DNA from: a virus
Lineage: Duplodnaviria; Heunggongvirae; Uroviricota; Caudoviricetes
DNA: 64,000 nucleotides
Virus record (IMG/VR): IMGVR_UViG_3300028374_000006
Strand: one strand, 5' to 3'
Both the position numbers and the translations under genes were made by a program. The notes below the pieces were generated by a model. That model was not told the origin of the DNA and ran no database searches. It worked only from the letters and a program-made list of their open reading frames with translations. This document shows, one piece after another, positions 23,969-48,073 of the stretch (positions are counted from its first letter, which is position 1; each line of letters begins with the position of its first letter).

Positions 23969-23982
23969 CTTTAGGAGACAGT

Positions 23983-25384: not shown

Positions 25385-25427
25385 TCGGGAATGAGCAACA
25401 GGTATTCTGTTGTTGTCCCCAAAGCAC

Positions 25428-25501
25428 GCCCACGTAGCTCAGTCTGGCAGAGCGGCTACCTTGTAAGTAGCTGGTCGGCGGTTCGAATCCGTCCGTGGGC
25501 T
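25428..25501 (+). tRNA. tRNA-Thr (anticodon UGU)
   Basis: Acceptor GCCCACG/CGUGGGC, anticodon loop CUUGUAA, T-arm GGCGGTTCGAATCCGTC. Confidence 0.85.
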
Positions 25502-25505
25502 TGAG

Positions 25506-25766
25506 GTGAGTATGGACGATCTGAAAAACAAGATAATGCGTGACCCCGTAGGTAGGGAAGCGCTGCGTAAAGCACCCCGAATCAAAGGGGATTTACCTAT
25601 CTTGATCGTACTTACTGACGGGTCTAAGCACTGGTTTCGCCGGGCACGCTCGACGAACCAAGATTTCGACAAGTACGTGTTATTCGATGAGAACGGCGCG
25701 GAACTTGTTGATCTTTCCGCAGAGGCCCAATTGGAAGAGGAACTCGCAGCCTTGACCAAAGAATAG
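25506..25766 (+). CDS. hypothetical protein
   Basis: ORF between two tRNAs; GTG 25506 or ATG 25512. Confidence 0.45.
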   Translation: MSMDDLKNKIMRDPVGREALRKAPRIKGDLPILIVLTDGSKHWFRRARSTNQDFDKYVLFDENGAELVDLSAEAQLEEELAALTKE

Positions 25767-25773
25767 CTTTTAA

Positions 25774-25857
25774 GCCGAAGTGATGGAATTGGTAGACTTG
25801 CCTGATTCAAAATCAGGTGGCCTTCGGGTCGTGTGGGTTCGACTCCCACCTTCGGCA
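25774..25857 (+). tRNA. tRNA-Leu (anticodon CAA), class II
   Basis: Acceptor GCCGAAG/CUUCGGC, D-arm GGAATTGGTAGA, anticodon loop UUCAAAA, long variable arm, T-arm GTGGGTTCGACTCCCAC. Confidence 0.85.
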
Positions 25858-25867
25858 CTTATCCCCT

Positions 25868-26374
25868 ATGAAAAAGATCCTTACATTCAACGTTTTCAGG
25901 GCACTCCGTGATCTCCCCCGAATGAAAGAGGCCGGTACGGACTATGCTCTGGTGGAGTTTGTTTCCCCACCTTCCGAACCACTGTGGGCTATCTTCGAAG
26001 AGGATAACCCGCGCCACGAGTTCTTTTGCTTTGACGACGTGACGTCCCCGTGGGCCGTCTCCACGGCTTCTTTGGCCGGGTACCAAGCGCCAACCGATGA
26101 CGATATCCAAAGGCTTCTCGATGCGTCTGATACGCTCCTAGAGGCTGAGTACGTCTATTGTCATTGTGAAGCGGGTATCAGCCGGTCTACGGCTGCAGCT
26201 TACATCCTCCATTGTATTGATCTAGGTCCGGGCCTGCGCCGGGAAGTATGGTGCAGAGGTCCAAAATGGTCGCATGGATCCTTTGGATGTGGAAACAATA
26301 GACCCGTCGTACACGACGTTAAAAGATCAAAATTAAGCCCCCGTGGCCCAAATGGAATGAGGCACGGCACTTAA
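25868..26374 (+). CDS. CX5R protein tyrosine / dual-specificity phosphatase
   Basis: 'VYCHCEAGISRSTAAAYI' (HCxxGxxRS) active site. The 3' tail overlaps the next tRNA, so the true stop is uncertain. Confidence 0.7.
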   Translation: MKKILTFNVFRALRDLPRMKEAGTDYALVEFVSPPSEPLWAIFEEDNPRHEFFCFDDVTSPWAVSTASLAGYQAPTDDDIQRLLDASDTLLEAEYVYCHCEAGISRSTAAAYILHCIDLGPGLRREVWCRGPKWSHGSFGCGNNRPVVHDVKRSKLSPRGPNGMRHGT

Positions 26375-26413
26375 AATGCCGGTTAGTTGTGGGTTCGAGT
26401 CCCACCGGGGGTA
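26337..26413 (+). tRNA. atypical tRNA, anticodon UAA (Leu-type) with class-I architecture, A73
   Basis: Acceptor GCCCCCG/CGGGGGU, anticodon stem CGGCA/UGCCG, loop CUUAAAA, only 7-nt variable region, T-arm GTGGGTTCGAGTCCCAC. Confidence 0.6.
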
Positions 26414-26434
26414 CTTGAATACTGGAGTTACGGC

Positions 26435-26975: not shown

Positions 26976-27696
26976 CAACAAAACGAAAAAATCGCCCTAC
27001 CACGACGTCCGAGTCACCAAAGGGGTCTACGGCGAACTGTCGAAGATTCAAGAGGAACTGGATGAGGCCGTTGACGCCGATATCCGGGGCCTCGACTTAC
27101 TGGTTCTGATAGAGCTTGCGGATGTGATCGGTGCTGTCGCCGGTGTGGCCGAAGAGCAATATGGCTTCGACCTCGATCAACTGATTGCCTTCAGCGAAAT
27201 GGTCCGGGGTGTTAAGTCGAAAGAGGCTGCCCAAGCCCAAGAAAATCTGGAACAGGCCAAGCAATCCCTCGAAGCCGCCAAAGCCTCACGCCGAGAACTT
27301 GAGGGGGGCTGGGAAGTTATCTGTCGGCGCATCTGGGATAACCCTTCCATTCCGATGGCCGCAAAGATCGGCAGGATGCAGGACCGTTACCTAAATCACC
27401 CGGAAGAATTGCCGCTCAAGATTCTGGAGCCGGGGGATGAACCGATGATTTGCGATGTCTTTGAAAAGCAAGGCTGGAAGTTTGATCTGGATGAGGATTT
27501 CAACCGTGGCGAGCGGGAAATGATTAACCATTTCGGCGGCCTCCGAGCATTCGCTGCTTTACTGACTGAGAAATTCACCGAACAAGCCGAACAGTATGGC
27601 CGCAAGCCTAAAGGGCTGGCTGGTGAAATGATTGGCGAAAATGGGAAATCCAGCGGGCCAGTCTTCAACCCGAAACAGTATGGCACCGATGAGTGA
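26962..27696 (+). CDS. MazG-like nucleotide pyrophosphohydrolase domain protein
   Basis: 'GELSKIQEELDEAVDA...LVLIELADVIGAV' all-alpha NTP-PPase pattern in the N-terminal ~90 aa, with a long C-terminal extension. Confidence 0.55.
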   Translation: MKMRDNKTKKSPYHDVRVTKGVYGELSKIQEELDEAVDADIRGLDLLVLIELADVIGAVAGVAEEQYGFDLDQLIAFSEMVRGVKSKEAAQAQENLEQAKQSLEAAKASRRELEGGWEVICRRIWDNPSIPMAAKIGRMQDRYLNHPEELPLKILEPGDEPMICDVFEKQGWKFDLDEDFNRGEREMINHFGGLRAFAALLTEKFTEQAEQYGRKPKGLAGEMIGENGKSSGPVFNPKQYGTDE

Positions 27697-28378
27697 TTAC
27701 ACGATCGAAGATGGGGTGGTGCATTTAGGACCCGAGCTATCGGAACTGGAGCGCCGCCTTTTTCGAATGTTCGAAGAGCGATTGATCGCCAAGGGTTTCA
27801 AGTACCTGTCGGTCCCTTCCTCTTTGAAATGGTCATCGCTTCGCAAACAAGGCACAGTCACCGTAGATCACACCCTGAACGTGGACGAGGTGCATTGTCT
27901 GGCGGGTTCGGCGGAGCAGGGTATCTTGGAGCGATATGCGGGCCAAAACGTCGAGCCGATGCTCCTGTACGCTGAGAACGCCTGTTTCCGTACCGAAGAT
28001 GAGTACGAGGGTTTGCGGTCGTGCAAAGAGTTCCGCAAACTAGAACAGTATGCCTTTGTTGATCCCGACGAATGGGAAAGGGTATTTTTCGAATTGCTGT
28101 CCAATGCGCTTCGGTTCCTAGAAGACCTTGGGATTGAATGCCGCGCCCGTGATTGCACCAAAGACGATCCGGGTTATCACCATTACAAAGTCGACATTGA
28201 GGTCTGGACTGAGCAATACGGCTGGCTAGAAACCCACTCGTGTTCGTATTTCGCCGATGAGCAGATCAAGCGGTTTTCGATTGGTGGCGACGTGCATTCG
28301 ATTTCTAACACCGGCCTTGCCTCCCCACGTGTATTGATCCCGTTTATTGAACAAGGAATAGGTCCCGATGACTTGTAA
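27680..28378 (+). CDS. seryl-tRNA synthetase catalytic-core homolog lacking the N-terminal tRNA-binding arm
   Basis: Class II motif 2 'FRTEDEYEGLRSCKEFRKLEQYAFV'. SerRS signature 'YKVDIEVWTEQYGWLETHSCSYFADEQIKRF' (cf. bacterial 'YDLEVW...EISSCSN..DFQARR'). Motif 3 'HSISNTGLASPRVLIPFIEQ'. Only 233 aa. Confidence 0.75.
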   Translation: MAPMSDYTIEDGVVHLGPELSELERRLFRMFEERLIAKGFKYLSVPSSLKWSSLRKQGTVTVDHTLNVDEVHCLAGSAEQGILERYAGQNVEPMLLYAENACFRTEDEYEGLRSCKEFRKLEQYAFVDPDEWERVFFELLSNALRFLEDLGIECRARDCTKDDPGYHHYKVDIEVWTEQYGWLETHSCSYFADEQIKRFSIGGDVHSISNTGLASPRVLIPFIEQGIGPDDL

Positions 28379-28967
28379 AGTATTGCCTGTAATCCACGTT
28401 TCTGAAACGCGCCAAGTGTTGCGTAACGTGGACATTGTTCTAAAAGCCGAAGCTGACGGCGTGTTTCTTGTGAACCACGATAAGGATTGGCAGCATTTGC
28501 AACGTGTCGTAAAGGCGGTGCAGGATTTTGCCCCCGATCTGTGGCTAGGGATCAATTCGCTTGACCTACATCCCAAGCAGGCGTTCGGCTTTTTCAAAAG
28601 CGTGGACGGTATCTGGACCGACAACGGCGGTATCGACGAGCGTTCGAAAGAGCAGCCACATGCGACTATGATCCGTGACGCCCGCGCTAACTATGATGGT
28701 CTGTATTTCGGTGGCGTTGCGTTCAAGTATCAGAGGCCCGTTTACAACGTCGTAGGGGCCGCCGAGATTGCGACTGACTACATGGACGTCGTGACGACCG
28801 TAACGCCGATTACAGATTGGCAAGAGTCAATCAATTATCGTGTGTTCGGATTGGCCGAAGACTATATGGGGTATGATGATCCGGGCTATGCTGAATCTGA
28901 AAGAGCAAAAGGCCCGGAACCCGAAATCGTCAAGTTTTTGGATTGGGCAGTGGAGCAATACGGATGA
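28368..28967 (+). CDS. TIM-barrel-like protein (BtpA/SgcQ-family-like?)
   Basis: 'VLPVIHVSE', 'DGVFLVNHD', 'LWLGINSLD' loosely match BtpA-family patterns. Translationally coupled to the SerRS-like gene. Confidence 0.35.
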   Translation: MTCKVLPVIHVSETRQVLRNVDIVLKAEADGVFLVNHDKDWQHLQRVVKAVQDFAPDLWLGINSLDLHPKQAFGFFKSVDGIWTDNGGIDERSKEQPHATMIRDARANYDGLYFGGVAFKYQRPVYNVVGAAEIATDYMDVVTTVTPITDWQESINYRVFGLAEDYMGYDDPGYAESERAKGPEPEIVKFLDWAVEQYG

Positions 28968-30877: not shown

Positions 30878-30902
30878 TGACTTGATACGTTAGCAGTACG
30901 AA

Positions 30903-30932
30903 CCCCTCCCTTATCGGAGGGGTTTTTCTTTT
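30903..30932 (+). terminator. rho-independent terminator (CCCCTCC-loop-GGAGGGG + TTTTTCTTTT)
   Basis: Strong GC hairpin plus T-run after CDS 29348..30877. Confidence 0.75.
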
Positions 30933-35285: not shown

Positions 35286-35873
35286 ATGTGTGAACAATGC
35301 CTAGCCGAGACGGTAACGGTGGCCATTATCGAAGGCCCACCGACACCCGAGGCTACACAGCAAGACCTTGATTTAGGTCGTGTTACTACGGGCTGGTACG
35401 TAGCTGTCGCTACCAAGGCGGCTTACGATTTCGTCCCCGGCGACGTGTTTGTGGGCAGGATAAACGACCCAGACATGGTGCTTACGGACGACCTTTTCGA
35501 TATGGAAGAGTGGACTGCCGAAGACGAGGACGAAAACGCCCTCGACCATCTTCGTGGTGGCCCCGTAAATTCCCTGTCGGAATATGAGGATTCACCTCTG
35601 GCGTCAGACCGGTTCATTTTCGGCGAAGGCAATACCAACATTTTCCATCCCGATTTCGAGACGGGTGGTAAAGGCGATTGGTGGGTGGCCGTGCCAAGCA
35701 TCGTACACGATTTCGAAGAGACGTTCGGTGCGCCCCCTAGAGGGTTCGGTATTTGGACTGCATGGCCTATCGCCAAGGTGGCAGAGGTATTTCGGGAACA
35801 CGGAGTTCCTTACGACAAGGAAGGGCGCTTGAAATGGGCGCTCGAAAACAAGGAAAACAATGACGATTCGTGA
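35286..35873 (+). CDS. hypothetical protein
   Basis: CCAGAGGTG RBS + ATG 35286. Confidence 0.5.
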   Translation: MCEQCLAETVTVAIIEGPPTPEATQQDLDLGRVTTGWYVAVATKAAYDFVPGDVFVGRINDPDMVLTDDLFDMEEWTAEDEDENALDHLRGGPVNSLSEYEDSPLASDRFIFGEGNTNIFHPDFETGGKGDWWVAVPSIVHDFEETFGAPPRGFGIWTAWPIAKVAEVFREHGVPYDKEGRLKWALENKENNDDS

Positions 35874-36360
35874 CCTAGTGCTATATCCGAATGACGTTTT
35901 GATTCAGCCGACTATCGAGGTTGAAGCAACGTCGGAAGATACCCATGCCTTGGTGCAGGATCTCGTCGATACCATGCACAATGCGAAAGGTGTCGGCTTG
36001 GCTGCCCCGCAAGTGGGTGAGTCTAAGCGGGTATGTATCGTAGAGTTCGAGGATGAACTACACGTGCTGGTTAATCCCCGCATTCTAGAGTGGGAAGGCA
36101 CCCCCGAAGCCGACGAAGAAGGGTGCCTTAGTTTCCCCGGTGTGTATACCCCTGTCGAAAGGTCGCCGAAGATCCGGGTTAAGTATCAGACCCCCGAGGG
36201 TGATGATATCGACCGGGAAGTTGAAGGGTTCTTAGCCCGAGCCTTTCAGCACGAAATCGACCACCTCAACGGCGTTCTGTTCATCGACCGAATGAGTGCT
36301 CTGCGCAAGCGGATGGCGCTGAAAAAGTATCGCAAGTTCCTGAACCGGAGGAACAAATGA
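35860..36360 (+). CDS. def: peptide deformylase
   Basis: Motifs 'GVGLAAPQVG', 'EGCLSFPGV', 'QHEIDHLNG'. Confidence 0.9.
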   Translation: MTIRDLVLYPNDVLIQPTIEVEATSEDTHALVQDLVDTMHNAKGVGLAAPQVGESKRVCIVEFEDELHVLVNPRILEWEGTPEADEEGCLSFPGVYTPVERSPKIRVKYQTPEGDDIDREVEGFLARAFQHEIDHLNGVLFIDRMSALRKRMALKKYRKFLNRRNK

Positions 36361-36770
36361 GCGACGATTTAGACATCGAAAACATGAGCGACGACGAGTT
36401 GCGGACCGAAGTTGCGGACATGGGTGAAAACATGGTCCGTAAGGTTTGCCAGCAGCTAGCTGTTTATTACCTTCGCAAGATCGACGAAGCAACGCTAGGA
36501 CAAATCGACCAAACGCTGTTCGAGGACGAGTCAGAGGTTCATCTTTATGAGGTGGTGAAACAGGTGGCCGAGGATATTCGGCGGCTTGAAGCTGCACGTG
36601 AACATAAAAAAGCGTTCCTAGCTCTCAAAGACCTTACCGAACCCCTTGCGGTTTTTTTCGAAAGTGTGATGGTCATGGCTGACGATGAGGCCGTGAAGCA
36701 AAACCGAATGCGCCTGCTCGCCGAGGTACGGGATACGTATCTTATGTTAGCTGATTTCTCTTTTCTCTGA
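36357..36770 (+). CDS. stand-alone homolog of glycyl-tRNA synthetase beta-subunit C-terminal (anticodon-binding) region
   Basis: 'EPLAVFFESVMVMADDEAVKQNRMRLLAEVRDTYLMLADFS' closely resembles the GlyS C-terminal 'FFDNVMVMAEDEALRNNRLALL...ADIS'. ATGA overlap with def. Confidence 0.6.
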   Translation: MSDDLDIENMSDDELRTEVADMGENMVRKVCQQLAVYYLRKIDEATLGQIDQTLFEDESEVHLYEVVKQVAEDIRRLEAAREHKKAFLALKDLTEPLAVFFESVMVMADDEAVKQNRMRLLAEVRDTYLMLADFSFL

Positions 36771-36779
36771 GGTCCCTAA

Positions 36780-37127
36780 ATGATGAGTGTTCCTATGCAA
36801 AAGGTGCGGGCTTGGGCTATCAGTTGGGAGGACAAATGGGCAGACCATTACCACCGAACGGGCAAAGCAGGACACCCCGGCTTTAACGGGTTGGTTACGG
36901 TCGTAGACGAATCAGGATCTACGTTCACGTATTTCGACGCTTTCGCGGTCAAGCACTGTCCCCGAGGTTGGGACGATGATTTTGTGGTGGTCTTTACTGA
37001 GCACCACGGGTTCCATATTTTTGCCGAAGACGATCTATTACACTATTCGCAGTGGGAAGACCGGGTACGGATTCCCCACCACGACGACGACCATAAAGAG
37101 ATAGCCCATGACGGAAACACTGCCTAA
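36780..37127 (+). CDS. hypothetical protein
   Basis: ORF. Confidence 0.45.
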   Translation: MMSVPMQKVRAWAISWEDKWADHYHRTGKAGHPGFNGLVTVVDESGSTFTYFDAFAVKHCPRGWDDDFVVVFTEHHGFHIFAEDDLLHYSQWEDRVRIPHHDDDHKEIAHDGNTA

Positions 37128-38217
37128 GAATCTGGATGAGCAGCTTCGAATTTCGAAGACGGTTTACTCTTGGGTGATGCCCGAGACGGAAGCCTTGATC
37201 CGGGAAGTCCAATCGGATCCTTATCATCAAAATATACTGCAGAGCCGCCACCGGGAAGCATGGACGGGTAAACAGGACGTTTACCACGAGGAGTTTTTCG
37301 AGGCGTGGGGGAATTGGGCGTCGGGAGATATTTACAAGCCCACGGGCGGTTTCATGTATCCCACGGCAGGGTCGTCGGAAGCCATTCGCGAAAGCCTCGC
37401 TCAGATGGCTTCTCTGGCTAAGTATAGCCCCCATCTTGGCGTCCCTACCATTCACGTGTTCAAAGGCGAATACGAGGGTTACAGGGCGCTTGCGGAGCCT
37501 TATGGCATCACGGTAGTGGAACATAGCCGCAACAACTGGCGGGAAGCGATCCACGCTATCGGTAAAGAGCCGCGTAAGGGTAGAGGCCAGCGGTTTTACA
37601 TTTCGCATCCATCTTCGATCGACGGCAACCTGTGGCGTGAGTTCAGTTCGTTTCTCAATACGATTGGGGATGCGACTGAACTCAAGGTGATGTTGGATCT
37701 GTGCTATATCGGGTGCGTCCCCAAAGGCCAGTATCCCTGCACGCCACAAGTCCACAAGTACGTGGGCGAACGTATCCCCGCAAACCACGATGCAGTTGAT
37801 ACCGTGTTCTTTTCGCTGTCCAAAGTGTTCGGGTTGTATTACCACCGCATCGGCGGTATGATTACGCACACGGAACATCCCGGATTGTGGGGCAACAAAT
37901 GGTTCAAAAACCTGTCGTCCCTTTATCTGGGCACGCAATTCATGAACCGGTATTCGCCGTTCGAGTTGCCAAACAAATACCGGTCGTTACAAGAGGCCGT
38001 CGTCGAAGATCTCAGGGCCGATGATGGTGGCAAAAGATTGAGCCCGTCGATGGGGTCCGATGTTAAGCCCTCCGACGTGTTCCTTTTGGCGTATCAGAGT
38101 ACGGCTGTTGGGGATCTCCCCCGCCGTTACGAGCGCGCATCCGGCAAGAATCGTTATTGCTTGACCCAGCGCATGTACGATAGGTGCATGGAGCAAGGTT
38201 TGTACGATACGGAGTAA
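37108..38217 (+). CDS. PLP-dependent aminotransferase-fold protein
   Basis: 'FFSLSKVFGLYYHRIGG' matches the class I/II aminotransferase lysine motif (SxSKxxGxxGxRxG). Confidence 0.45.
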   Translation: MTETLPKNLDEQLRISKTVYSWVMPETEALIREVQSDPYHQNILQSRHREAWTGKQDVYHEEFFEAWGNWASGDIYKPTGGFMYPTAGSSEAIRESLAQMASLAKYSPHLGVPTIHVFKGEYEGYRALAEPYGITVVEHSRNNWREAIHAIGKEPRKGRGQRFYISHPSSIDGNLWREFSSFLNTIGDATELKVMLDLCYIGCVPKGQYPCTPQVHKYVGERIPANHDAVDTVFFSLSKVFGLYYHRIGGMITHTEHPGLWGNKWFKNLSSLYLGTQFMNRYSPFELPNKYRSLQEAVVEDLRADDGGKRLSPSMGSDVKPSDVFLLAYQSTAVGDLPRRYERASGKNRYCLTQRMYDRCMEQGLYDTE

Positions 38218-38220
38218 GAC

Positions 38221-38706
38221 ATGGCTGAAGTAGAGTACGAATATCAGATTGTTCACGAGCCTTCGGGTACGGCATTAACCAAGCGTTACGTGAACCTTGG
38301 AAACGCCCTGAACCGTATCGAAAGTAACAGGCGTCGGGACTGGACCCCGGAGTATCTGGCCGATTGTATCATCCGGGAATACCGAATCGAAACGACGGTA
38401 GATGTCGAGCGCCCGTTGGACGACGCTTACGAAATTCCGCCCGGTGACACTGCGTATGTGCGCACCTTTGAAAAGCGACCTTGCACGAACTGCAACGGCA
38501 AGCCCCCGAACGGTTTCGAGTGTAAGAAGTGCAAGAATACCGGGGAGATGGATGTAGCGGTAGCAAAGCCTATCTCAATTACCCACCATTTCCGCAAGTC
38601 GGGAAGTCGTTATAAGCAGTGGAAAAAGAAATCCGGGTACCGAAATTCGACGACTGTTAATCCTGACGACATATACGCTACCCCAGAGGAAGCAGAGGAC
38701 GTATGA
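38221..38706 (+). CDS. hypothetical protein with C-terminal zinc ribbon
   Basis: 'CTNCNGKPPNGFECKKCKNTG'. Confidence 0.5.
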   Translation: MAEVEYEYQIVHEPSGTALTKRYVNLGNALNRIESNRRRDWTPEYLADCIIREYRIETTVDVERPLDDAYEIPPGDTAYVRTFEKRPCTNCNGKPPNGFECKKCKNTGEMDVAVAKPISITHHFRKSGSRYKQWKKKSGYRNSTTVNPDDIYATPEEAEDV

Positions 38707-39593
38707 AAAATATCATAGCCATACATGACCCCGAAGAGATTCATACTTACGTCAGAGATCTCTGGCGCACCGATCTTTTCCGGGATTCGCAAGACGACGA
38801 AAACGGGTATATCCGGGGTATCGTTGATGATCTAGCACAGCGGCCCGTTGTGTTTTTCGAGATGGATGACCCCAGCATTGAATGGTCGCAATTCACGACA
38901 TGGATGGGCGCTTACGCACTACGCCCGGATTACGATAGCGATGCGATTCACGACCTGTACTACCTCCACGAGTTCGTCCACGGGGCGACGATGGAGTACG
39001 ACACGGGTCTATCGTTCGTCGATTGGCATCGCAAGATGTGCGAGAATGAAATGTTGGCTTCGGTCCATTCGGAAGCCCTCGTGTATTTCGAACTGAAAGG
39101 CTTGCGGGATCTCAGTTTCGATTTTGATATTTGGGTTGACCGGTATCTGAAAGACCGAGGTAAACTGCATCCTTATGGGGCCACCATGACTTCGTGGCGT
39201 CGTGTAGACGGTAATATTTCCGTACATGGTTTCACGCACCACAACACCAAAGAGGCCCTCCTCAAGGCCCGCAAAGAGTCGATGACGACGCCGGATCCCT
39301 TTGACTTTTTGGAGATGCAGCTCCACTACTACGCCATGCAAAATGTGCAGTGGTCGAATATCTGGAAAGACCATTTCCGGGAAGTCGAAGAGCACATGGC
39401 GTCGTACCTCAAGTTAGCCGAAGAGGACCGGGCTGCCGCTCTGGAAATGCACGTGGGCTGGCTCCGAGACATGCGAAATCCCGACCCTTTGCTGCATAAC
39501 CAAGTGACCCCTTACGAAAGGGAAGCAATCGCTTTTGCCAAAATCGTGGAAGCTAACAAGAAACGCCAAGGCAACCAAATCCTGAAGGCTTGA
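38703..39593 (+). CDS. hypothetical protein
   Basis: ORF with overlapping start. Confidence 0.5.
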   Translation: MKNIIAIHDPEEIHTYVRDLWRTDLFRDSQDDENGYIRGIVDDLAQRPVVFFEMDDPSIEWSQFTTWMGAYALRPDYDSDAIHDLYYLHEFVHGATMEYDTGLSFVDWHRKMCENEMLASVHSEALVYFELKGLRDLSFDFDIWVDRYLKDRGKLHPYGATMTSWRRVDGNISVHGFTHHNTKEALLKARKESMTTPDPFDFLEMQLHYYAMQNVQWSNIWKDHFREVEEHMASYLKLAEEDRAAALEMHVGWLRDMRNPDPLLHNQVTPYEREAIAFAKIVEANKKRQGNQILKA

Positions 39594-43119: not shown

Positions 43120-43504
43120 TTTTCCAGAAAACGATCACGTCTACAACATGTTTGTAGAGGTCCTAGAGTGGCTGAAACTGTATGACGAAGCAGGTCTGAA
43201 TCCGATGGTTCTATCGGCAGACGATCCTGTGGATGCTACCATAGGTTTCACGGTGGTCGTTGACAGTGATGCGGATTTGACGGCGCATTCAAGGCTGTTC
43301 TTGGGGTACATCAAGCAACAGAAAGAGCACCCGGAATCGGAACGGTTCTTTTTGTTCACGCCACCCATCGGGGACGTGACTCAGAAATATATCAAAACCG
43401 CCCAAGGTAGGACCTCCATAGCCAATCGGCTGACCAATGCGGACCTTACTCGGCCAATCCCCGAAATCTTGACAGATGTTCGAACATGGGGGCTTGCCGA
43501 ATAG
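43112..43504 (+). CDS. hypothetical protein
   Basis: ATG 43112 overlaps the upstream stop. Confidence 0.45.
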   Translation: MPDFPENDHVYNMFVEVLEWLKLYDEAGLNPMVLSADDPVDATIGFTVVVDSDADLTAHSRLFLGYIKQQKEHPESERFFLFTPPIGDVTQKYIKTAQGRTSIANRLTNADLTRPIPEILTDVRTWGLAE

Positions 43505-43532: not shown

Positions 43533-43622
43533 GGAGCGCTTGGCATGTGGTACGCCAGCCGGTTTTGAAAACCGTGTGGTCGCCGGAAGGCGGCTTAGGG
43601 GTTCGACCCCCCCTGCGCTCCT
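43533..43622 (+). tRNA. tRNA-Ser (anticodon UGA), class II
   Basis: Acceptor GGAGCGC/GCGCUCC, anticodon loop UUUGAAA, long variable arm, T-arm GGGGTTCGACCCC. Confidence 0.75.
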
Positions 43623-43635
43623 TGAGGAGTTATGG

Positions 43636-43857
43636 ATGGCTGAATGGGAGCGCCAAATAGCGGGTGAAGACGTAGACGCCATTATAGGTACCTGTATCTG
43701 TTGTGGTCTTGCCGCTCAAATGGCTGTGACTTTGTTCAATTACGAAGGCGCTGATCCCATTCAAATGTGTGACCTTTGCTATTCGATAACCGAAGACAAC
43801 GATTTGGACCCGATTGAAGTAGCGGCGTCTTGCGTTGTTGACGATTTAGAGGAATAG
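43636..43857 (+). CDS. hypothetical Cys-rich small protein
   Basis: 'CICCGL...CDLCYS'; the ORF-track N-terminus overlaps the tRNA and is rejected. Confidence 0.45.
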   Translation: MAEWERQIAGEDVDAIIGTCICCGLAAQMAVTLFNYEGADPIQMCDLCYSITEDNDLDPIEVAASCVVDDLEE

Positions 43858-43862
43858 CATAC

Positions 43863-43951
43863 GGAGTGGTTGACAAGGCTGGCACGTCAGGCTGTTTCGA
43901 AAACAGTTCGGTCGCTTTTGCGGCTTGGGGGTTCGATCCCCTCCCACTCCG
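43863..43951 (+). tRNA. tRNA-Ser (anticodon CGA), class II
   Basis: Acceptor GGAGUGG/CCACUCC, anticodon loop UUCGAAA, long variable arm, T-arm GGGGGTTCGATCCCC. Confidence 0.75.
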
Positions 43952-44002
43952 CTTCATTACCATTTCAAGGGTGTGGATAATTCATTTATCTTCGGGTAAG
44001 GT

Positions 44003-44359
44003 ATGTCTGGTTATTATTCCATCCTACAGTACATGCCCGACCCGGAACGGCGCGAAGCCGTCAATTTCGGCGTCATGTTGCTAGAAAAAGAGACGGGTCA
44101 GTTCAGTTGGATCTTGACTCGTCCGATCAGGCGTATCCAGAGGTTCTTTCCCGGCACTTCAGAAGCGTACCTTAACGATCTTATGACCGCTTTTTACAAC
44201 CGTATCTGTGCCGAACAGGTCAACGACTTAGATGATCTCACCCATTTTGCAATCACACGTGGCGGTGTCGTGCAATGTAGTGAGCCGCAGTGGGTTGATT
44301 TCGCACATAAAGACATGCCCAAGGTTCTCCAGCGTTTGCTAGAGGACCTTGTTTTTTAG
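44003..44359 (+). CDS. hypothetical protein
   Basis: ORF. Confidence 0.5.
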   Translation: MSGYYSILQYMPDPERREAVNFGVMLLEKETGQFSWILTRPIRRIQRFFPGTSEAYLNDLMTAFYNRICAEQVNDLDDLTHFAITRGGVVQCSEPQWVDFAHKDMPKVLQRLLEDLVF

Positions 44360-44712
44360 TAGTCCCGGTAGACCGCGTGCCCGGTTTCAACGAGGCGGTC
44401 GCTGACGTTGACCTGATTACCCTCAAGTTCAACGAATAGTTCGGCAATGTAACGCCCGTATTTACCTGTTTTTTCGGTCTTGATCTTGATCACAGACCCT
44501 ACGGGGATAAGCTCTTCAAGATAAGACTTAGCTGTGATCCCCCGTTGATACTCCTCGGAAGAGTGTTTGACCCCGAAGATTTCGGGGGCGTCAATACGGG
44601 CGATGCGAAGTCGGACGTCGTAAGATACCTGAAATCCCAAGTCGATATTGACGTCGAGGGTATCGGCATCAACGATTCGGGTAACAGTGGCACGGTAGTT
44701 CCAGAGATCCAT
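44356..44712 (-). CDS. staphylococcal-nuclease (thermonuclease) homolog
   Basis: 'ATVTRIVDADTLDV...RLRIARIDAPE' SNase motifs. A longer alternative start at 44790 is possible. Confidence 0.7.
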   Translation of the reverse strand: MDLWNYRATVTRIVDADTLDVNIDLGFQVSYDVRLRIARIDAPEIFGVKHSSEEYQRGITAKSYLEELIPVGSVIKIKTEKTGKYGRYIAELFVELEGNQVNVSDRLVETGHAVYRDY

Positions 44713-44736
44713 TGGCTGCTCCTTCGGTAAGTTAGG

Positions 44737-45192
44737 TTGTGTATGGTACAGTACAAACGAAATACCCCTGATCCTGAAAAGTTGGCCCATGATTTCTTAC
44801 TCGACATCGTAGGTCACGTGATTGATCTCCGTGAACAAGGCTGTGAGCCGCAGCTCTATATCGAATCCGGCCTATGGGATGAACGTGTGGTCAGGGTGTA
44901 TGTTTGGGATGCGGTAGAAGGGTCGCGTCGGGAGGTGTTCGAGATGGGTGAAATGATTCTCCGTCAGACTCGCTTTGCCGACGCATGGCTGTATAGGGAA
45001 GGTCGTTTGACTCTGGCGGAGGCATTGGCGTCAGCAGGGGGGATCGCAGAGGTAGATACCGCTAAGTATCTTCGGGAAGAGGTCGAAAGGCGGCGTGATG
45101 CAGTTGACGATCAATGGGAAGCTGAAAAGAAAGAGATGCCAGCGGGTTCGGGAGTAGGTTTTGGCGCACTTGCCCGGATAGCACAGGAATAA
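44737..45192 (+). CDS. hypothetical protein
   Basis: ORF. Confidence 0.45.
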   Translation: MCMVQYKRNTPDPEKLAHDFLLDIVGHVIDLREQGCEPQLYIESGLWDERVVRVYVWDAVEGSRREVFEMGEMILRQTRFADAWLYREGRLTLAEALASAGGIAEVDTAKYLREEVERRRDAVDDQWEAEKKEMPAGSGVGFGALARIAQE

Positions 45193-45232
45193 CCTTGACG
45201 ACCTACGAGGTTATGTGGTACGTATTATATAC

Positions 45233-45320
45233 GGAGGGTTGCCTGAGTTGGTAAAGGGCCGGATTGCTAATCCGAGGCGTCGATTATTTCGGCACGTGGG
45301 TTCGAACCCCACACCCTCCG
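45233..45320 (+). tRNA. tRNA-Ser (anticodon GCU), class II
   Basis: Acceptor GGAGGGU/ACCCUCC, anticodon loop UUGCUAA, long variable arm, T-arm GTGGGTTCGAACCCCAC. Confidence 0.8.
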
Positions 45321-45473
45321 CTGATATAACGAAGCCCCCGGTGGTTGAAACTGCCGGGGGCTTCGTTGCGATTTCCACCGAAGCGGAAGCAAGAAAATAC
45401 ATCTTGACTTGCTACTAACCTGTATTACAAGTAAAGTATTGGCCCCTACGACCACTAGTACGAGGATGAAATC

Positions 45474-45779
45474 ATGGGCGACCGAGGCAACATTTTTTTC
45501 GTAGACCAACGCGATGAGGAAGAAGGTACCTGTGCGGGTATTTACATGTACACCCATTGGGCCGGATACGATTTGCCACAGATTCTTCAGGAGGGCTTGA
45601 AGCGTGGCCGTAGCCGGTGGGATGATCCGCAATACCTGCCGCGTATTCTGTTTTGCGAGATGGTCAAAGACGATATCGAAGGGGAAAGGTGCTATGGACA
45701 TTTTGGAAGCAGAACCTACATGCGAATGTGGGAGCAAAAACGTCACCTTTATCATGTCACCTACGAGTCGCGTATTTGA
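45474..45779 (+). CDS. hypothetical protein
   Basis: ORF. Confidence 0.45.
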   Translation: MGDRGNIFFVDQRDEEEGTCAGIYMYTHWAGYDLPQILQEGLKRGRSRWDDPQYLPRILFCEMVKDDIEGERCYGHFGSRTYMRMWEQKRHLYHVTYESRI

Positions 45780-45933
45780 TGGGGTTGCGGGTACCCTTCG
45801 GTGTGACGAAGAAGATTGTGGGCGTCGTATCAATGCGATTAAGCATCATCGTCGTGACTATCCCAATCTGAAAGTTGATCGTTCAAAGTTTGATGAGTTT
45901 CAGGGTATGATATGTCCTGATCGAAGTAGGTAA
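45694..45933 (+). CDS. hypothetical zinc-ribbon-like protein
   Basis: 'CECGS...CDEEDCG'; overlaps the previous ORF in another frame, so one of the two may be spurious. Confidence 0.35.
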   Translation: MDILEAEPTCECGSKNVTFIMSPTSRVFDGVAGTLRCDEEDCGRRINAIKHHRRDYPNLKVDRSKFDEFQGMICPDRSR

Positions 45934-46019
45934 GCTGGAGTGGCGGAACTGGTAGACGCGCTACACTCAGACTGTAGTGGGCTTTGTAGCCCGTGTGGGT
46001 TCGAATCCCACCTTCAGTA
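45934..46019 (+). tRNA. tRNA-Leu (anticodon CAG), class II
   Basis: Acceptor GCUGGAG/CUUCAGU (2 G-U), D-arm GGAACTGGTAGA, anticodon loop CUCAGAC, long variable arm, T-arm GTGGGTTCGAATCCCAC. Confidence 0.75.
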
Positions 46020-46022
46020 TTT

Positions 46023-46268
46023 ATGGCTGACGTGCTCGAAATAAGGCAAGATGAGTTGCCGCCTACGAAGTATGATCCTTTCCTCTGCACTGAGGATGTG
46101 TTACAATTAAGGCGAGCTTTAATGCCTTTGTTGTATTCATACGAAAAGCCACTCGATGACCACGAACAGGTGGTGATTGTGGCGACGGCTAATTTCGAAG
46201 ATGGTCGAGCTATCGGAGTTAAGAATAACCTTGGCCCCCTTTCCGATTTGGATCGCGGGTTCAAATGA
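46023..46268 (+). CDS. hypothetical protein
   Basis: ATG just after the tRNA; the upstream extension in the ORF track overlaps the tRNA. Confidence 0.45.
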   Translation: MADVLEIRQDELPPTKYDPFLCTEDVLQLRRALMPLLYSYEKPLDDHEQVVIVATANFEDGRAIGVKNNLGPLSDLDRGFK

Positions 46269-46449
46269 TGCATCGTGAAGAGGCTCTTAGAACCCTTGGT
46301 ACCAAGGCGAAGTCGAAGCGGTGAAACGGCCCCGAAGTGTCCCAAGAGGCTGGGCCTGTCGTTGATACTATACCAACGGGTGGTATCTCGATCCATACAA
46401 AGCGCCGTTGGTGGGTGAGGCGGGGCCTTTAAGCTCGCCGACTTTTTAC

Positions 46450-46522
46450 GCCTCCGTATCCCAACGGCAGAGGACGCGGATTTAGAATCCGTTCAGTGTG
46501 AGTTCGAATCTCACCGGAGGCA
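46450..46522 (+). tRNA. atypical class-I tRNA, anticodon UAG (Leu-type codons CUA/CUG), A73
   Basis: Acceptor GCCUCCG/CGGAGGC perfect 7 bp, D-loop AACGGCAG, anticodon stem GCGGA/UCCGU, loop UUUAGAA, variable UCAGU, T-arm GTGAGTTCGAATCTCAC. Confidence 0.55.
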
Positions 46523-46524
46523 TT

Positions 46525-46812
46525 TCAAGGCAAATCACCCTCATAGTACGTGCGAAGTCGTTTCCTCACGGCATTATCTGATACGCCGAGATCACGTGCT
46601 ACAGCGGAATAGTTCCTTGACCGCACACGTTCCACCAGTACAGCACAAGACGGCCAATCAACCTTAGTGTCACGGGCTTTTCCGGCACAAGATTTACACC
46701 GAGTAGCTTTCCTGCTGATCGGCGTACCACAATCTTTACAACTATTCGGTTCCGAGCTACTAGCGACCGCTAGTTGTTTGTGGTGACAGTCAATACATCG
46801 TTTGGCCCCGCC
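46525..46812 (-). pseudogene. start-less remnant encoding a zinc-ribbon + HTH domain (homing-endonuclease C-terminal-like)
   Basis: Minus-strand frame translates to '...CKDCGTPISRKATRCKSCAGKARDTKVDW...YSAVARDLGVSDNAVRKRLRTYYEGDLP*' with no ATG/GTG/TTG start in the frame. It abuts the tRNA. Confidence 0.4.
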
Positions 46813-46846
46813 TTACCGAAAAAGGTCTAAAAACATTCTGGTCTGT

Positions 46847-46875
46847 TTGACACGTACCTCATCCTGTGGTACGTT
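46847..46875 (+). promoter_or_regulatory. sigma70-like promoter TTGACA-17-TACGTT with TGG extended -10
   Basis: Perfect -35 hexamer, 17-nt spacer, TGn motif. Confidence 0.4.
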
Positions 46876-46977
46876 CTAAATGCCCAAGCGGGTCGCACCC
46901 GGCCCCCTGCCTCCATAGGCTTATGGTAGGGGGTGTCGCCTCATGAGGCGAACTTGGGCTCCATTACTACCCGGAGT

Positions 46978-47241
46978 ATGACGATGCCTTGGCTCTTTGA
47001 AGTCCATAATACCCTCGATTTCAACCCGTGTTGCGACACAAGCATGGCGAGGATTGTGGACGCGGATTTTTGGGAAGAGCATGGGCACTTCGACGACCAG
47101 CACCTCCTCGAGATTTTGCAAGAAGAATTCGCTGATTTCCGGGGTGAAGAGTTAATGGAAGGTGTGTTCGACTTTGACATGCCTGCCCAAGAGACGACCG
47201 CATACCTTACCAGTCTGGGCATGCGCCCGATGGTTGAGTAA
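46978..47241 (+). CDS. hypothetical acidic protein
   Basis: ORF; ATG 46978 or 46984. Confidence 0.45.
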   Translation: MTMPWLFEVHNTLDFNPCCDTSMARIVDADFWEEHGHFDDQHLLEILQEEFADFRGEELMEGVFDFDMPAQETTAYLTSLGMRPMVE

Positions 47242-47263
47242 CTACGATACGAGCAATACTACG

Positions 47264-47779
47264 ATGCACGATCTATCAAAGGCTTCCCTCCCTACGCTGG
47301 ACACTCACATCACCGGCGTCGAATCCCGCAAACGACTTGACGAGCTGCAGACACAGCTTGATCAGGTGCGGTATCACGAATTGCAATTTCAGATGCAGTT
47401 CGTCGCTTTCGACAAAAAAGAGCGCCCCCACCGGTTCAACGACCTCCCCACCAAAAAGACCAAGTACAGCAAGTTCATGATGGTCTTGGTGCGTGTGGAT
47501 CCTAAAGGTAAAGAGGTTGAGTGGTATGGCCCCATCTGGTTTGTGGACCCCGACAAGAACGGTAAAAAGCGCTATCTCACCGGCATTGATTTGACCCGAA
47601 TGCACTGGTACGCCAGTAAAGGGTCACGCCCTTGTCCTACGGTGACGCTTGACCGTAATGATGTGGGCGAAGATGTAGAGTATGCCTACATGTCTGGGGG
47701 CGGGACATGGGTTCGCGTCCCTTCAATCACCGATGAATTTGGTCGTGTCCTGTCCCTGTATGACATCAACCTCTGGTGA
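47264..47779 (+). CDS. hypothetical protein
   Basis: ORF (ATG 47264). Confidence 0.5.
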   Translation: MHDLSKASLPTLDTHITGVESRKRLDELQTQLDQVRYHELQFQMQFVAFDKKERPHRFNDLPTKKTKYSKFMMVLVRVDPKGKEVEWYGPIWFVDPDKNGKKRYLTGIDLTRMHWYASKGSRPCPTVTLDRNDVGEDVEYAYMSGGGTWVRVPSITDEFGRVLSLYDINLW

Positions 47780-47782
47780 CGT

Positions 47783-48073
47783 GTGCTAAACCTTTTCAGC
47801 ATATTTCGGTTGGGCCGTGACCCGTGTGAGAGCTACGGACATTCGTTTCGCTTTGACCATAGGTATATCCACCCTTCCGGGTTGCCTATGGTCTATACGC
47901 GATGTAGACGGTGCGACACAGGATGTTCGCAGCCTGACTGGAACGAACTGAGTGGCCCGGAAAAGGTGACGATCCTTGTTTCCGGGGATGAATTTTACGA
48001 CCACCTCCGATTAACAGCACCGTTCAAAGAGGATTTTGAGCGGCGACGAAAAGAGATATACGGTTATGGGTGA
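47783..48073 (+). CDS. hypothetical protein with CxxC pair
   Basis: 'CRRCDTGC'. Confidence 0.45.
   Translation: MLNLFSIFRLGRDPCESYGHSFRFDHRYIHPSGLPMVYTRCRRCDTGCSQPDWNELSGPEKVTILVSGDEFYDHLRLTAPFKEDFERRRKEIYGYG

What the first reader, a model, noticed from the sequence alone, without database searches (positions are those of the whole stretch)
35860..38217. Translation-related mini-cluster: peptide deformylase, GlyRS-beta C-terminal domain orphan, PLP aminotransferase-fold protein
def is canonical. The next gene (ATGA-coupled) is a 137-aa protein matching only the extreme C-terminal block of GlyS (FFxxVMVMA(D/E)DExxxxNR(L/M)xLL...ADxS), a region not known to exist as a free protein. A PLP-fold enzyme with the SxSK lysine motif follows two genes later. 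A free-standing GlyS tail could bind tRNA-Gly or the host GlyRS alpha2beta2 enzyme to modulate host translation.
Basis: partly seen in the sequence, partly recalled or inferred. Interest (0 to 1): 0.6.

Follow-up and report, generated by a model that had tools for sequence, protein, structure and literature searches.

The report
Orphan GlyRS anticodon-binding domain in phage
A large phage carries, right behind a normal peptide deformylase gene, a small free-standing gene that is a real copy of only the tRNA-anticodon-binding tail of bacterial glycyl-tRNA synthetase; this is unusual and unexplained, but it is confined to one phage lineage, lacks one key tRNA-reading residue, and is not functionally tied to the neighbouring PLP enzyme.

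Summary
ORF 35860-36360 is a canonical peptide deformylase. The ATGA-overlapping 137-aa ORF (36357-36770) is a significant homologue of only the last ~100 residues of GlyS (NCBIfam glyS E 1e-20; hhalign 99.8 %, E 5e-30; predicted four-helix bundle closest to the E. coli GlyRS-beta anticodon-binding domain). Residues 40-137 score like real GlyS sequences and keep the FFxxVMVM loop that reads anticodon base C35. Residues 1-39 are a new acidic segment, and the helix carrying Arg585 (reads C36) is missing.

No other GlyS remnant lies in the window. I found no other true free-standing copy in IMG/VR, INPHARED, BFVD or the best 150 library hits. The exact protein occurs only in one near-clonal phage population, and one contig has a 13-nt frameshift deletion.

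The 369-aa protein is a fold-type-I PLP enzyme. It forms a conserved pair with the downstream 296-aa HExxH protein in other phages and in Pirellula, without def or the GlyS tail. The "mini-cluster" is therefore not a functional unit.

Most likely the protein is a small accessory tRNA (C35-anticodon) binder or adaptor. A functionless captured fragment is a serious rival.

The parts
35860..36360 (+). Peptide deformylase (166 aa), catalytically complete type with a C-terminal basic helix
   Evidence: Pfam PF01327 E 3e-50; PHROG 2890; TIGR00079 148.6 bits, above its cutoff. Motifs GVGLAAPQ, EGCLS and HEIDH are read in the translation.
36347..36351 (+). GGAGG Shine-Dalgarno for the 137-aa ORF, inside the 3' end of def and 5 nt before the ATG. 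The ATG (36357-36359) overlaps the def TGA (36358-36360).
   Evidence: Sequence read directly.
36357..36770 (+). Free-standing 137-aa homologue of the GlyRS beta-subunit anticodon-binding (DALR) domain
   Evidence: The AF2 model has pLDDT 84 and four helices. The top Foldseek match is 7yse_C with TMq 0.75.
36357..36473 (+). Residues 1-39: a lineage-specific acidic N-terminal segment (net charge -7 over residues 1-36) with no detectable GlyS homology. It is predicted as a long helix (12-37) occupying the place of the GlyS 'ANKRxxNIL' helix.
   Evidence: hhalign starts at residue 37; hmmalign leaves residues 1-39 unaligned; charge; helix.
36474..36767 (+). Residues 40-137: the core homologous to E. 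coli GlyS ~591-688. It scores 113.7 bits against leave-one-out GlyS profiles, within the range of real GlyS sequences (81-126, median 110).
   Evidence: All columns that are at least 90 % conserved in the family are retained.
36654..36677 (+). F100-F101-E-S-V104-M-V106-M107: equivalent to the E. coli GlyS F651-M658 loop, whose backbone hydrogen-bonds to anticodon base C35
   Evidence: Alignment; the contacts F652, V655, V657 and M658 are taken from PMC9908026 and PMC10464925.
36691..36703 (+). 13-nt stretch (CCGTGAAGCAAAA) deleted in contig L008 (JGI sample 3300028415). The deletion frameshifts the last 25 residues.
36780..37127 (+). 115-aa ORF of unknown function lying between the GlyS tail and the PLP gene
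   Evidence: No Pfam, PHROG or NCBIfam match; no relative in IMG/VR.
37108..38217 (+). 369-aa fold-type-I PLP enzyme, aminotransferase class I/II-like. The predicted Schiff-base lysine K239 is at 37822-37824.
   Evidence: The family has at least 700 members. S236, S238, K239, D197, Y200 and R247 are invariant. The family profile hits 3fkd at 2e-5 and 2gb3 at 5.9e-5. The single sequence is below the Pfam threshold.
38703..39593 (+). 296-aa protein with an invariant HExxH motif. It is the conserved genomic partner of the PLP gene and does not belong with def or the GlyS tail.
   Evidence: Gene pair seen in L018, L001 and L020; invariant H89, E90, H93; AF2 pLDDT 89 with no PDB fold match.

Best explanation
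SHOWN. [quoted passage not shown] It lies in a long co-directional gene array of a jumbo-type phage and is translationally coupled to a complete peptide deformylase gene. Residues 40-137 are as GlyS-like as real GlyS sequences. They keep the FFxxVMVM loop that reads C35 through its main chain, and the invariant polar residues E60, N116, R117 and D133. Residues 1-39 are new and acidic. They replace the helix that carries Arg585, the C36 reader. No catalytic alpha subunit and no GlyS body is encoded in the window.

INFERRED. The protein folds as a four-helix bundle and still docks onto the anticodon loop of tRNAs that have C35. tRNA-Gly is the ancestral ligand, but specificity is probably loosened because the C36-reading arginine is gone. 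Because an isolated domain would bind weakly, it most likely acts as a small accessory factor. It could be a targeting or adaptor subunit for another protein, as DALRD3 is for METTL2. Alternatively it could shield or compete at the anticodon loop. The phage invests heavily in tRNA biology: 12 tRNA genes, a SerRS core-only protein, an RlaP nucleotidyltransferase and RNase T-like exonucleases.

The stated confidence refers to this mechanism. The identity of the domain itself is about 0.97.
For: - Homology.
- Fold: AF2 pLDDT 84 and pTM 0.76. The top Foldseek hits are the E. coli GlyRS-tRNA complex chain 7yse_C (TMq 0.75, rmsd 2.7 A over 124 columns), followed by ArgRS anticodon-binding domains.
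- No sign of decay: all 13 family columns with at least 90 % conservation are retained although overall identity is only 28-43 %. The leave-one-out HMM score of 113.7 bits sits at the median of real GlyS.
- The C35 contacts F652, V655, V657 and M658 map to phage F101, V104, V106 and M107.
- The region removed in EcGlyRS575 (residues 576-689) is needed for a stable tRNA complex and for full charging (PMC8464048). The phage protein corresponds to that piece.
- The gene is well formed, with GGAGG 5 nt upstream of an ATG that overlaps the def stop.
- The 5.8-billion-cluster search found no protein with E <= 0.001 other than the phage's own. The best match in the 1.84-billion representative library is 43 % identical.
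- Precedent for a non-synthetase DALR protein that targets an enzyme to specific tRNAs: DALRD3 with METTL2 (PMC7237682).
- tRNA-rich context.
Against: - No binding was or could be tested.
- The 'ANKRxxNIL' helix is absent. It carries Arg585 (57 of 58 family sequences in A1) and N588 (54 of 60). An ungapped extension of the alignment places Leu34 and Tyr37 at those positions.
- The protein is very acidic, with net charge -15 and pI 4.4. The homologous part, at -8, is within the GlyS range of -11 to +1.
- One natural contig carries a frameshifting 13-nt deletion.
- The gene is known only from one near-clonal phage population, with 0-3 SNPs per 11 kb. Selection could therefore not be measured.
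- Related phages L001 and L018 lack it.
- No partner enzyme was identified.
- The AF2 model was built from an alignment of GlyS C-termini, so it leans towards that fold.
- The 27 GlyS sequences used for the leave-one-out test were chosen as best hits to the phage protein, which flatters its score.
Confidence: 0.4

Rival explanations
1. Functionless relic. The ORF is the leftover 3' end of a glyS gene that the phage or an ancestor once captured. It was cut inside the anticodon-binding domain at about GlyS residue 590, and it stays open only because it is short, recent or neutral.
For: - There is a sharp boundary at residue ~40 between unrelated sequence and perfectly GlyS-like sequence, as an illegitimate recombination breakpoint would leave.
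- The breakpoint removes the functionally essential Arg585 helix.
- A frameshift allele exists in one sample.
- The gene is restricted to one phage population and is absent from relatives.
- It sits in a variable accessory region.
Against: - No donor is closer than 43 % identity in the representative library, and the 5.8-billion-cluster search found nothing with E <= 0.001 apart from the phage's own protein. Capture is therefore not recent, yet every highly conserved family position survives. Neutral drift to about 40 % identity would not spare 13 of 13 such columns.
- The gene has an intact Shine-Dalgarno and start with translational coupling.
- The new N-terminal segment is predicted to form the fourth helix of the bundle.
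- No other glyS debris is present in the window.
Confidence: 0.3
2. Repurposed protein-binding module. The helical bundle no longer binds tRNA and instead binds a protein. Candidates are the host GlyRS, another host translation factor, or a phage partner such as def or the 115-aa neighbour. The acidic N-terminus may act as a nucleic-acid mimic.
For: - Loss of the basic KR..N helix and gain of a strongly acidic N-terminus (net charge -7 over residues 1-36, -15 overall).
- Translational coupling to def.
Against: - In GlyRS the ABD is a mobile arm tip that contacts tRNA rather than other subunits (PMC9908026 and PMC10164559). There is thus no known protein interface to inherit.
- The conservation that is retained is concentrated in the tRNA-reading loop and its supporting residues.
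- Phage genes are tightly packed everywhere in the window, so adjacency carries little weight.
Confidence: 0.17
3. def, the GlyS tail and the PLP enzyme act together as one translation-related module, for example in tRNA-dependent amino-acid chemistry.
For: - The genes are on the same strand with overlapping or abutting ORFs, and no terminator-like site with more than 8 stem pairs lies between ~31 kb and 41 kb.
- PLP enzymes acting on aminoacyl-tRNA exist (SelA, SepSecS, SepCysS; from my own knowledge).
- Phages can use Gly-tRNA-Gly as a co-substrate, as Mom does (PMC13219725).
Against: - The PLP gene's conserved neighbour is the 296-aa HExxH protein. That pair occurs without def or a DALR gene in phage L018, phage L001 and Pirellula sp. 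SH-Sr6A.
- The PLP family has at least 700 members, whereas the GlyS tail is unique to this phage.
- No GNAT/Mom-like gene was seen in the window.
Confidence: 0.04

Closest known systems
Anticodon-binding domain (ABD, residues 541-689) of bacterial alpha2beta2 GlyRS beta subunit (E. coli GlyS, PDB 7YSE; Pfam DALR_1 PF05746)
   Same: - Clear sequence homology over GlyS ~589-688.
- The same predicted all-alpha bundle.
- An identical FFxxVMVM loop for C35, and the NR...AD.S C-terminal signature.
   Different: - It is a separate 137-aa polypeptide with no B1/B2/B3/HD body and no alpha subunit in the window.
- It lacks the first ABD helices, including the Arg585 (C36) helix.
- It carries a new acidic 39-residue N-terminus.
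DALRD3 (human DALR anticodon-binding-domain protein, partner of METTL2)
   Same: A DALR-type anticodon-binding domain outside any synthetase, used to select particular tRNAs for another enzyme (PMC7237682). This is a functional analogy for the adaptor hypothesis.
   Different: DALRD3 is ArgRS-related, eukaryotic, larger, and has a known partner. No specific sequence relationship was tested here, and no partner is known for the phage protein.
ArgRS DALR anticodon-binding domain (e.g. PDB 5b63, 1f7u)
   Same: Same fold family. These are the next-best structural matches, with TMq 0.59-0.66. They too read C35.
   Different: They are embedded in a class I synthetase and bind tRNA in the opposite orientation (PMC9908026). 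Sequence similarity is much weaker than to GlyS.
Other free-standing synthetase-derived domains (Trbp111/Arc1p-type tRNA-binding domains, YbaK/ProX, AlaX, HisZ; named from my own knowledge, not tested here)
   Same: The general kind is the same: a single aaRS module living on as an independent small protein.
   Different: None of these derives from the GlyS ABD, and none known to me is phage-encoded in this form.
Phage-encoded peptide deformylases (PHROG 2890)
   Same: The def gene here is an ordinary member.
   Different: Nothing notable, apart from the overlapping downstream GlyS-tail gene.

Membership tests
GlyRS beta subunit (GlyS; TIGR00211, Pfam tRNA_synt_2f + DALR_1) | Full-length ~690-aa architecture with B1/B2/B3/HD domains preceding the ABD | tested here: not met
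   The protein is 137 aa. TIGR00211 scores 73.8 bits against a cutoff of 300 and matches only profile positions 588-683. Twenty-seven full-length GlyS queries hit only 36471-36761 in the whole window.
GlyRS beta subunit (GlyS; TIGR00211, Pfam tRNA_synt_2f + DALR_1) | C-terminal ABD sequence signature, including the FFxxVMVM C35-reading loop and NR...AD.S | tested here: met
   hhalign E 5e-30; hmmsearch 113.5 bits. F101, V104, V106 and M107 correspond to E. coli F652, V655, V657 and M658. All columns with at least 90 % conservation are retained.
GlyRS beta subunit (GlyS; TIGR00211, Pfam tRNA_synt_2f + DALR_1) | Conserved Arg585 (C36 reader) on the 'ANKRxxNIL' helix | tested here: not met
   Residues 1-39 do not align to the family. 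The ungapped extension gives Leu34 at the Arg585 position and Tyr37 at the N588 position. Arg is present in 57 of 58 family sequences in A1.
GlyRS beta subunit (GlyS; TIGR00211, Pfam tRNA_synt_2f + DALR_1) | A partner catalytic alpha subunit (GlyQ) encoded with it | tested here: not met
   No GlyQ or tRNA-synt_2e family appears among the Pfam matches of the window ORFs scanned. The rest of the ~230-kb genome was not available.
Pfam DALR_1 anticodon-binding domain (PF05746) | Score above the family's gathering threshold | tested here: met
   32.9 bits against 22.3, covering residues 39-127 on profile positions 12-101 of 117. The precomputed annotation on contigs agrees.
Pfam DALR_1 anticodon-binding domain (PF05746) | All-alpha helical-bundle fold superimposable on synthetase ABDs | tested here: met
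   The AF2 model has four helices and pLDDT 84. Foldseek gives 7yse_C TMq 0.75, and ArgRS chains 5b63, 4oby and 1f7u TMq 0.59-0.66. Caveat: the MSA consisted of GlyS C-termini.
Pfam DALR_1 anticodon-binding domain (PF05746) | Binds the tRNA anticodon loop | not testable with these tools
   This needs EMSA, ITC or CLIP.
Free-standing DALR adaptor proteins (DALRD3 type) | A DALR domain without a synthetase catalytic domain, working with a partner enzyme | tested here: inconclusive
   The free-standing condition is met. No partner was identified, the neighbours have unknown function, and no comparative contexts exist because the gene is unique to this phage.
Peptide deformylase (PF01327 / TIGR00079) | Family score above cutoff, plus the three catalytic motifs GxGxAAxQ, EGCLS and HExxH | tested here: met
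   GVGLAAPQ, EGCLSFPG and HEIDH are read in the translation.
Fold-type I PLP enzymes, aminotransferase class I/II (PF00155) | Pfam gathering score for the protein itself | tested here: not met
   11.4 bits against 19.7, E 0.17. Some family members do carry a precomputed PF00155 hit.
Fold-type I PLP enzymes, aminotransferase class I/II (PF00155) | Profile-level similarity to solved class I/II enzymes, and an invariant Schiff-base lysine in S-x-S-K followed by G..R.G | tested here: met
   The profile of 56 homologues hits 3fkd (threonine-phosphate decarboxylase) at 2e-5 and 2gb3 (AspAT) at 5.9e-5. S236, S238, K239, G242, R247 and G249, plus D197 and Y200, are invariant.

The most novel reading that the evidence does not exclude
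The orphan GlyS anticodon-binding bundle is an active phage tRNA-targeting subunit. It selects tRNA-Gly, or more broadly C35-anticodon tRNAs such as the phage's own tRNA-Arg(UCU) and tRNA-Ser(GCU). It then either hands them to a phage enzyme or protects them from host anticodon- or aminoacyl-directed toxins.

The partner enzyme could perform tRNA modification or repair, carry out Mom-like aminoacyl-tRNA-dependent chemistry, or be the phage's SerRS catalytic-core-only protein. That last pairing would form a split, non-canonical synthetase.

This would be the first viral example of a synthetase recognition domain redeployed as a stand-alone tRNA adaptor.
Probability: 0.1. Interest if true: 0.8.

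Novelty: new variant of a known kind. Interest (0 to 1): 0.42.

Why it matters
Free-standing pieces of aminoacyl-tRNA synthetases have repeatedly turned out to have their own biology, including editing factors, tRNA chaperones and targeting subunits such as DALRD3. tRNA-Gly in particular is the target of several host toxins linked to immunity (the GNAT toxins AtaT2 and TacT, and the toxSAS FaRel2). It is also a co-substrate for phage DNA hypermodification by Mom.

A phage protein made only of the GlyRS anticodon reader would, if active, be a compact natural tRNA-selecting module. It could point to a new way in which phages manipulate or protect the tRNA pool. If it is inert, it documents how jumbo phages pick up and retain fragments of host translation genes.

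The same phage also carries a SerRS catalytic core without its tRNA-binding arm. This suggests that modular reuse of synthetase parts may be a theme in this lineage.

Tried and rejected
- **Frameshifted or scattered GlyS remnants.** tblastn with 27 full-length GlyS against the window found only the tail. One weak hit at 43256-43489 (E 0.003, one of 27 queries) had no Pfam support in the batch scan and was dropped as chance.
- **Close relatives of the 137-aa protein.** The k-mer search of 5.8 billion clusters found only itself. The full HMMER scan of 1.84 billion representatives found only itself plus GlyS at no more than 43 % identity. IMG/VR scans with the protein found nothing. Scans with the alignment found only full-length or contig-edge GlyS. 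INPHARED tblastn found only annotated glyS or unannotated host-like DNA. BFVD fold search found only giant-virus synthetases.
- **Short library hits as possible free-standing homologues.** P0002 sits at a contig edge. P0009 follows a 550-aa GlyS body across a single in-frame TGA. N-termini such as 'MKPTGDKDPFALRRA' are internal GlyS sequence.
- **Synteny in relatives.** L001 and L018 keep the PLP, 296-aa and 314-aa genes but have no def or tail. The def relatives in IMG/VR are only 32 % identical and have no DALR ORF nearby.
- **Population variation for a selection test.** The contigs are near-clonal, so no dN/dS was possible.
- **Placing Arg585.** MAFFT, hhalign and hmmalign all fail to align the N-terminal 36-39 residues. 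An alternative register (K29 at the R585 position) is not supported by any score.
- **Extending the genome beyond the window.** This was meant to look for tRNA-Gly or glyQ. It gained only ~3 kb upstream, and the downstream protein was not on record.
- **Taxonomic origin of the nearest GlyS.** The results were uninformative.
- **Promoter and terminator scan.** There is one strong terminator at 30900-30925 and nothing that delimits a def/tail operon.


Full report
**Setting.** The window looks like part of a jumbo-type tailed phage. It encodes Lon protease, a GyrB-like subunit, a type ISP restriction-modification enzyme, DNA methylases and an RlaP nucleotidyltransferase. It also encodes anti-Pycsar Apyc1, a cold-shock protein, NifU, a sigma factor, dUTPase, RNase T-like exonucleases, and CYTH and NUDIX proteins. 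There are twelve tRNA genes, none of them for glycine. The 369-aa protein of the finding occurs with identical sequence on a contig of 230,823 bp. The exact 137-aa protein is on 16 metagenomic contigs from several JGI, ENA and Logan samples. These contigs are almost clonal with the window, showing 0-3 mismatches per 11 kb.

**Checking the observation.**
- The def gene (35860-36360) matches Pfam Pep_deformylase at 3e-50, PHROG 2890, and TIGR00079 above its trusted cutoff. It shows GVGLAAPQ, EGCLS and HEIDH.
- The next ORF (36357-36770, 137 aa) starts at an ATG overlapping the def TGA, and a GGAGG lies 5 nt upstream.
- The match to the GlyS tail is real:
  - DALR_1 is above its gathering score.
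  - NCBIfam glyS gives E 1.1e-20 on profile positions 588-683 of 684.
  - E. coli GlyS residues 589-688 in PDB 7YSE give E 4.9e-8.
  - All 27 full-length GlyS sequences tried hit this spot and only this spot in the window, best E 1.3e-17.
  - hhalign against a GlyS C-terminal profile gives 99.8 % probability and E 5e-30, and hmmsearch gives 113.5 bits.

**Anatomy of the 137-aa protein.** Homology begins sharply at residue 37-40.

Residues 40-137 correspond to E. coli GlyS ~591-688:
- They retain every column that is at least 90 % conserved in an alignment of 70 GlyS C-termini: E60, L63, L93, F100, F101, V104, V106, N116, R117, L120, L121, A132 and D133. Overall identity is only 28-39 % to those sequences and at most 43 % to any library hit.
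- Against leave-one-out profiles of 27 real GlyS sequences, the phage segment scores 113.7 bits. That is inside the range of the real sequences (81-126) and just above their median of 110. The caveat is that those 27 were chosen as good hits to the phage protein.

How this maps onto the published GlyRS structures:
- In the E. coli GlyRS-tRNA structure the ABD is a four-helix bundle plus a helix-loop-helix.
- C35 is read by the main chain of F652, V655, V657 and M658.
- C36 is read by the side chain of Arg585 (PMC9908026; confirmed in PMC10464925, and for the rice plastid enzyme in PMC10164559).
- The phage protein has the C35 loop intact (F101, V104, V106, M107).
- The helix 'AANKRVxNIL' that carries Arg585 has no counterpart. 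Residues 1-39 are unaligned by hhalign and hmmalign, and an ungapped extension puts Leu34 at the Arg585 position.

Residues 1-36 are strongly acidic, with net charge -7. The whole protein has net charge -15 and pI 4.4, while the homologous part at -8 lies within the GlyS range.

AlphaFold2, run with an MSA of GlyS C-termini, predicts four helices (12-37, 58-79, 83-103, 111-129) with pLDDT 84. Foldseek places the model closest to chain C of 7YSE (TMq 0.75, 124 columns), followed by ArgRS anticodon-binding domains.

The piece therefore roughly equals what was deleted in the crystallisation construct EcGlyRS575 (residues 576-689). That construct loses the stable tRNA complex and much of the charging activity (PMC8464048).

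**Is it unique?** I found no other convincing free-standing copy.
- The k-mer search of 5.8 billion clusters returned only the protein itself, as a 126-aa variant.
- The exhaustive HMMER scan of 1.84 billion representatives returned 2,083 hits. After the self-hit, the best are ordinary GlyS proteins or short fragments.
- The fragments I checked were a contig-edge piece and a GlyS interrupted by one in-frame TGA. Many others begin with internal GlyS sequence.
- IMG/VR scans with the protein and with the alignment found only full-length or edge-cut GlyS.
- INPHARED tblastn hit only records annotated as glyS or unannotated host-like DNA.
- In BFVD the only structural relatives are ABDs inside giant-virus synthetases.
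- Only the best 150 of the 2,083 library hits could be inspected, so rare orphans elsewhere cannot be excluded.

**Signs for and against function.**

For:
- Retention of all highly conserved positions despite deep divergence from every known GlyS.
- A proper ribosome-binding site and translational coupling.
- A predicted complete bundle in which a new helix fills the vacated position.

Against:
- Loss of the Arg585 helix.
- The acidic charge.
- Restriction to one phage population.
- Absence from related phages (L001; L018).
- One contig from another sample (L008) is identical over 981 bp except for a 13-nt deletion (window 36691-36703) that frameshifts the last 25 residues. This could be a real loss-of-function allele or an assembly error.
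- Selection could not be measured because the population is clonal.

**The "mini-cluster".** The 369-aa protein belongs to a family of at least 700 proteins in bacteria and large phages.
- On its own it misses the Pfam threshold.
- A profile of 56 members matches threonine-phosphate decarboxylase 3fkd (2e-5) and an aspartate aminotransferase 2gb3 (5.9e-5).
- S236-x-S238-K239, G242, R247, D197 and Y200 are invariant.
- Its conserved neighbour is the 296-aa protein (38703-39593). The two genes are adjacent in phage contig L018 and in Pirellula sp. SH-Sr6A (L020, next to two RlaP genes). In phage L001 the PLP gene has suffered an internal deletion. None of these loci has def or a DALR gene.
- The three genes of the finding are therefore neighbours in a densely packed co-directional array. 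The only strong terminator nearby is at 30900-30925. They are not a demonstrable functional unit.

**Most likely mechanism.** I commit to the following, with about 0.4 confidence for the mechanistic part. The protein is a stand-alone four-helix DALR bundle that still recognises the anticodon loop of C35-containing tRNAs. tRNA-Gly is the ancestral ligand, with relaxed discrimination at position 36. It works as a small accessory tRNA-binding factor, most plausibly as a targeting subunit for another protein. Less plausibly it acts as a shield or competitor at the anticodon loop.
- Shown: the homology, the retained C35 loop and the loss of the Arg585 helix.
- Predicted: the fold.
- Inferred: binding and role.

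The adaptor idea has a precedent in DALRD3-METTL2. tRNA-Gly is a known battleground. It is the target of the GNAT toxins AtaT2 and TacT and of the antiphage toxSAS FaRel2. It is also the co-substrate of phage Mu Mom.

The main rival, at about 0.3, is a functionless captured 3' fragment of glyS. A repurposed protein-binding module takes about 0.17, and the cluster-level reading about 0.04.

**Comparison with known systems.** The protein is not a GlyRS beta subunit: the architecture, the partner subunit and Arg585 all fail the membership test. It is a member of the DALR_1 domain family by score and predicted fold. As a kind, it belongs with free-standing synthetase-derived domains. A free GlyS ABD, and a phage-borne one, appears to be a new variant of that kind.

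**Verdict.** Interest is moderate at 0.42. This is a real oddity with a clear, cheap experimental test, but it is a single-lineage orphan lacking one key determinant, and no function has been demonstrated.

Noticed in passing
window 27689-28378 (+): A second orphan synthetase module in the same phage. This 229-aa protein matches only the catalytic core of seryl-tRNA synthetase (TIGR00414 positions 172-399 of 418, E 2.9e-12; PDB 1ser E 4.9e-10; Pfam tRNA-synt_2b E 8.8e-11) and has no N-terminal coiled-coil tRNA-binding arm. Three tRNA-Ser genes lie in the window (43533-45321).
   Followed up: partly
window 38703-39593 (+), with homologues in L018 7169-8029, L001 8571-9530 and L020 7275-8261: A 296-aa protein with an invariant HExxH motif (H89, E90, H93) plus invariant E116 and E124. 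The AF2 model is confident (pLDDT 89, pTM 0.88), yet Foldseek finds no PDB match (best E 1.1, TM below 0.22). The gene always sits next to the PLP aminotransferase-like gene, in phages and in Pirellula. This may be a new fold and a new two-gene enzyme module.
   Followed up: partly
window 37249-37341 (residues 48-78 of the 369-aa PLP protein): The family-conserved N-terminal motif (VYHEEFFEAWGNWASGD) resembles the AlaRS catalytic-domain motif ([20 protein letters not shown]), with phmmer E 0.17 against human AlaRS structures. It is probably chance, but the residues are conserved across the PLP family (Q56, H60, F63, W67, W70).
   Followed up: no
L008 (JGI 3300028415), equivalent to window 36017-37010: A natural variant of the same phage with a 13-nt deletion (CCGTGAAGCAAAA) that frameshifts the last 25 residues of the GlyS-tail protein. 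The contig is otherwise 100 % identical to the window.
   Followed up: yes
L004/L005 positions 1210-2429, inserted near window 28786-28799: Some contigs of the same phage carry an extra ~1.2-kb segment between the SerRS-core gene region and the 191/199-aa gene. It holds genes of 224, 77 and 125 aa, one with a weak BtpA hit. This is a strain-level gene-content difference.
   Followed up: no
L001 739-4188 and 7914-8291 (IMGVR_UViG_3300012271_000928): A distant relative phage has a Lon protease of 1149 aa, against 785 aa in the window. The extra internal ~360 residues look like an intein, but this was not checked. It also has a PLP-gene homologue reduced to 125 aa by an internal deletion that joins its N- and C-terminal ends.
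   Followed up: no
L017 576-2651 (GCA_041156885.1): A bacterial glyS is interrupted by a single in-frame TGA, so gene callers report a separate 129-aa 'DALR' protein. This may be a sequencing error, a pseudogene or stop-codon recoding. It shows how apparent free-standing ABDs arise in databases.
   Followed up: partly
window 21486-26414 and 43533-49650: Twelve tRNA genes lie in two clusters: Arg-TCT, Thr-CGT, His, Thr-TGT, Leu x4, Ser x3 and Val. None is for glycine. Two (Arg-TCT and Ser-GCT) have C at anticodon position 35.
   Followed up: partly
window 2742-3542 (+) and 12784-13842 (-): An anti-Pycsar Apyc1-type metallo-beta-lactamase-fold protein is present (Pfam PF23023, E 7e-33; located via L022). 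An RlaP-family nucleotidyltransferase is also present. RlaP genes also flank the PLP/HExxH pair in Pirellula (L020).
   Followed up: no
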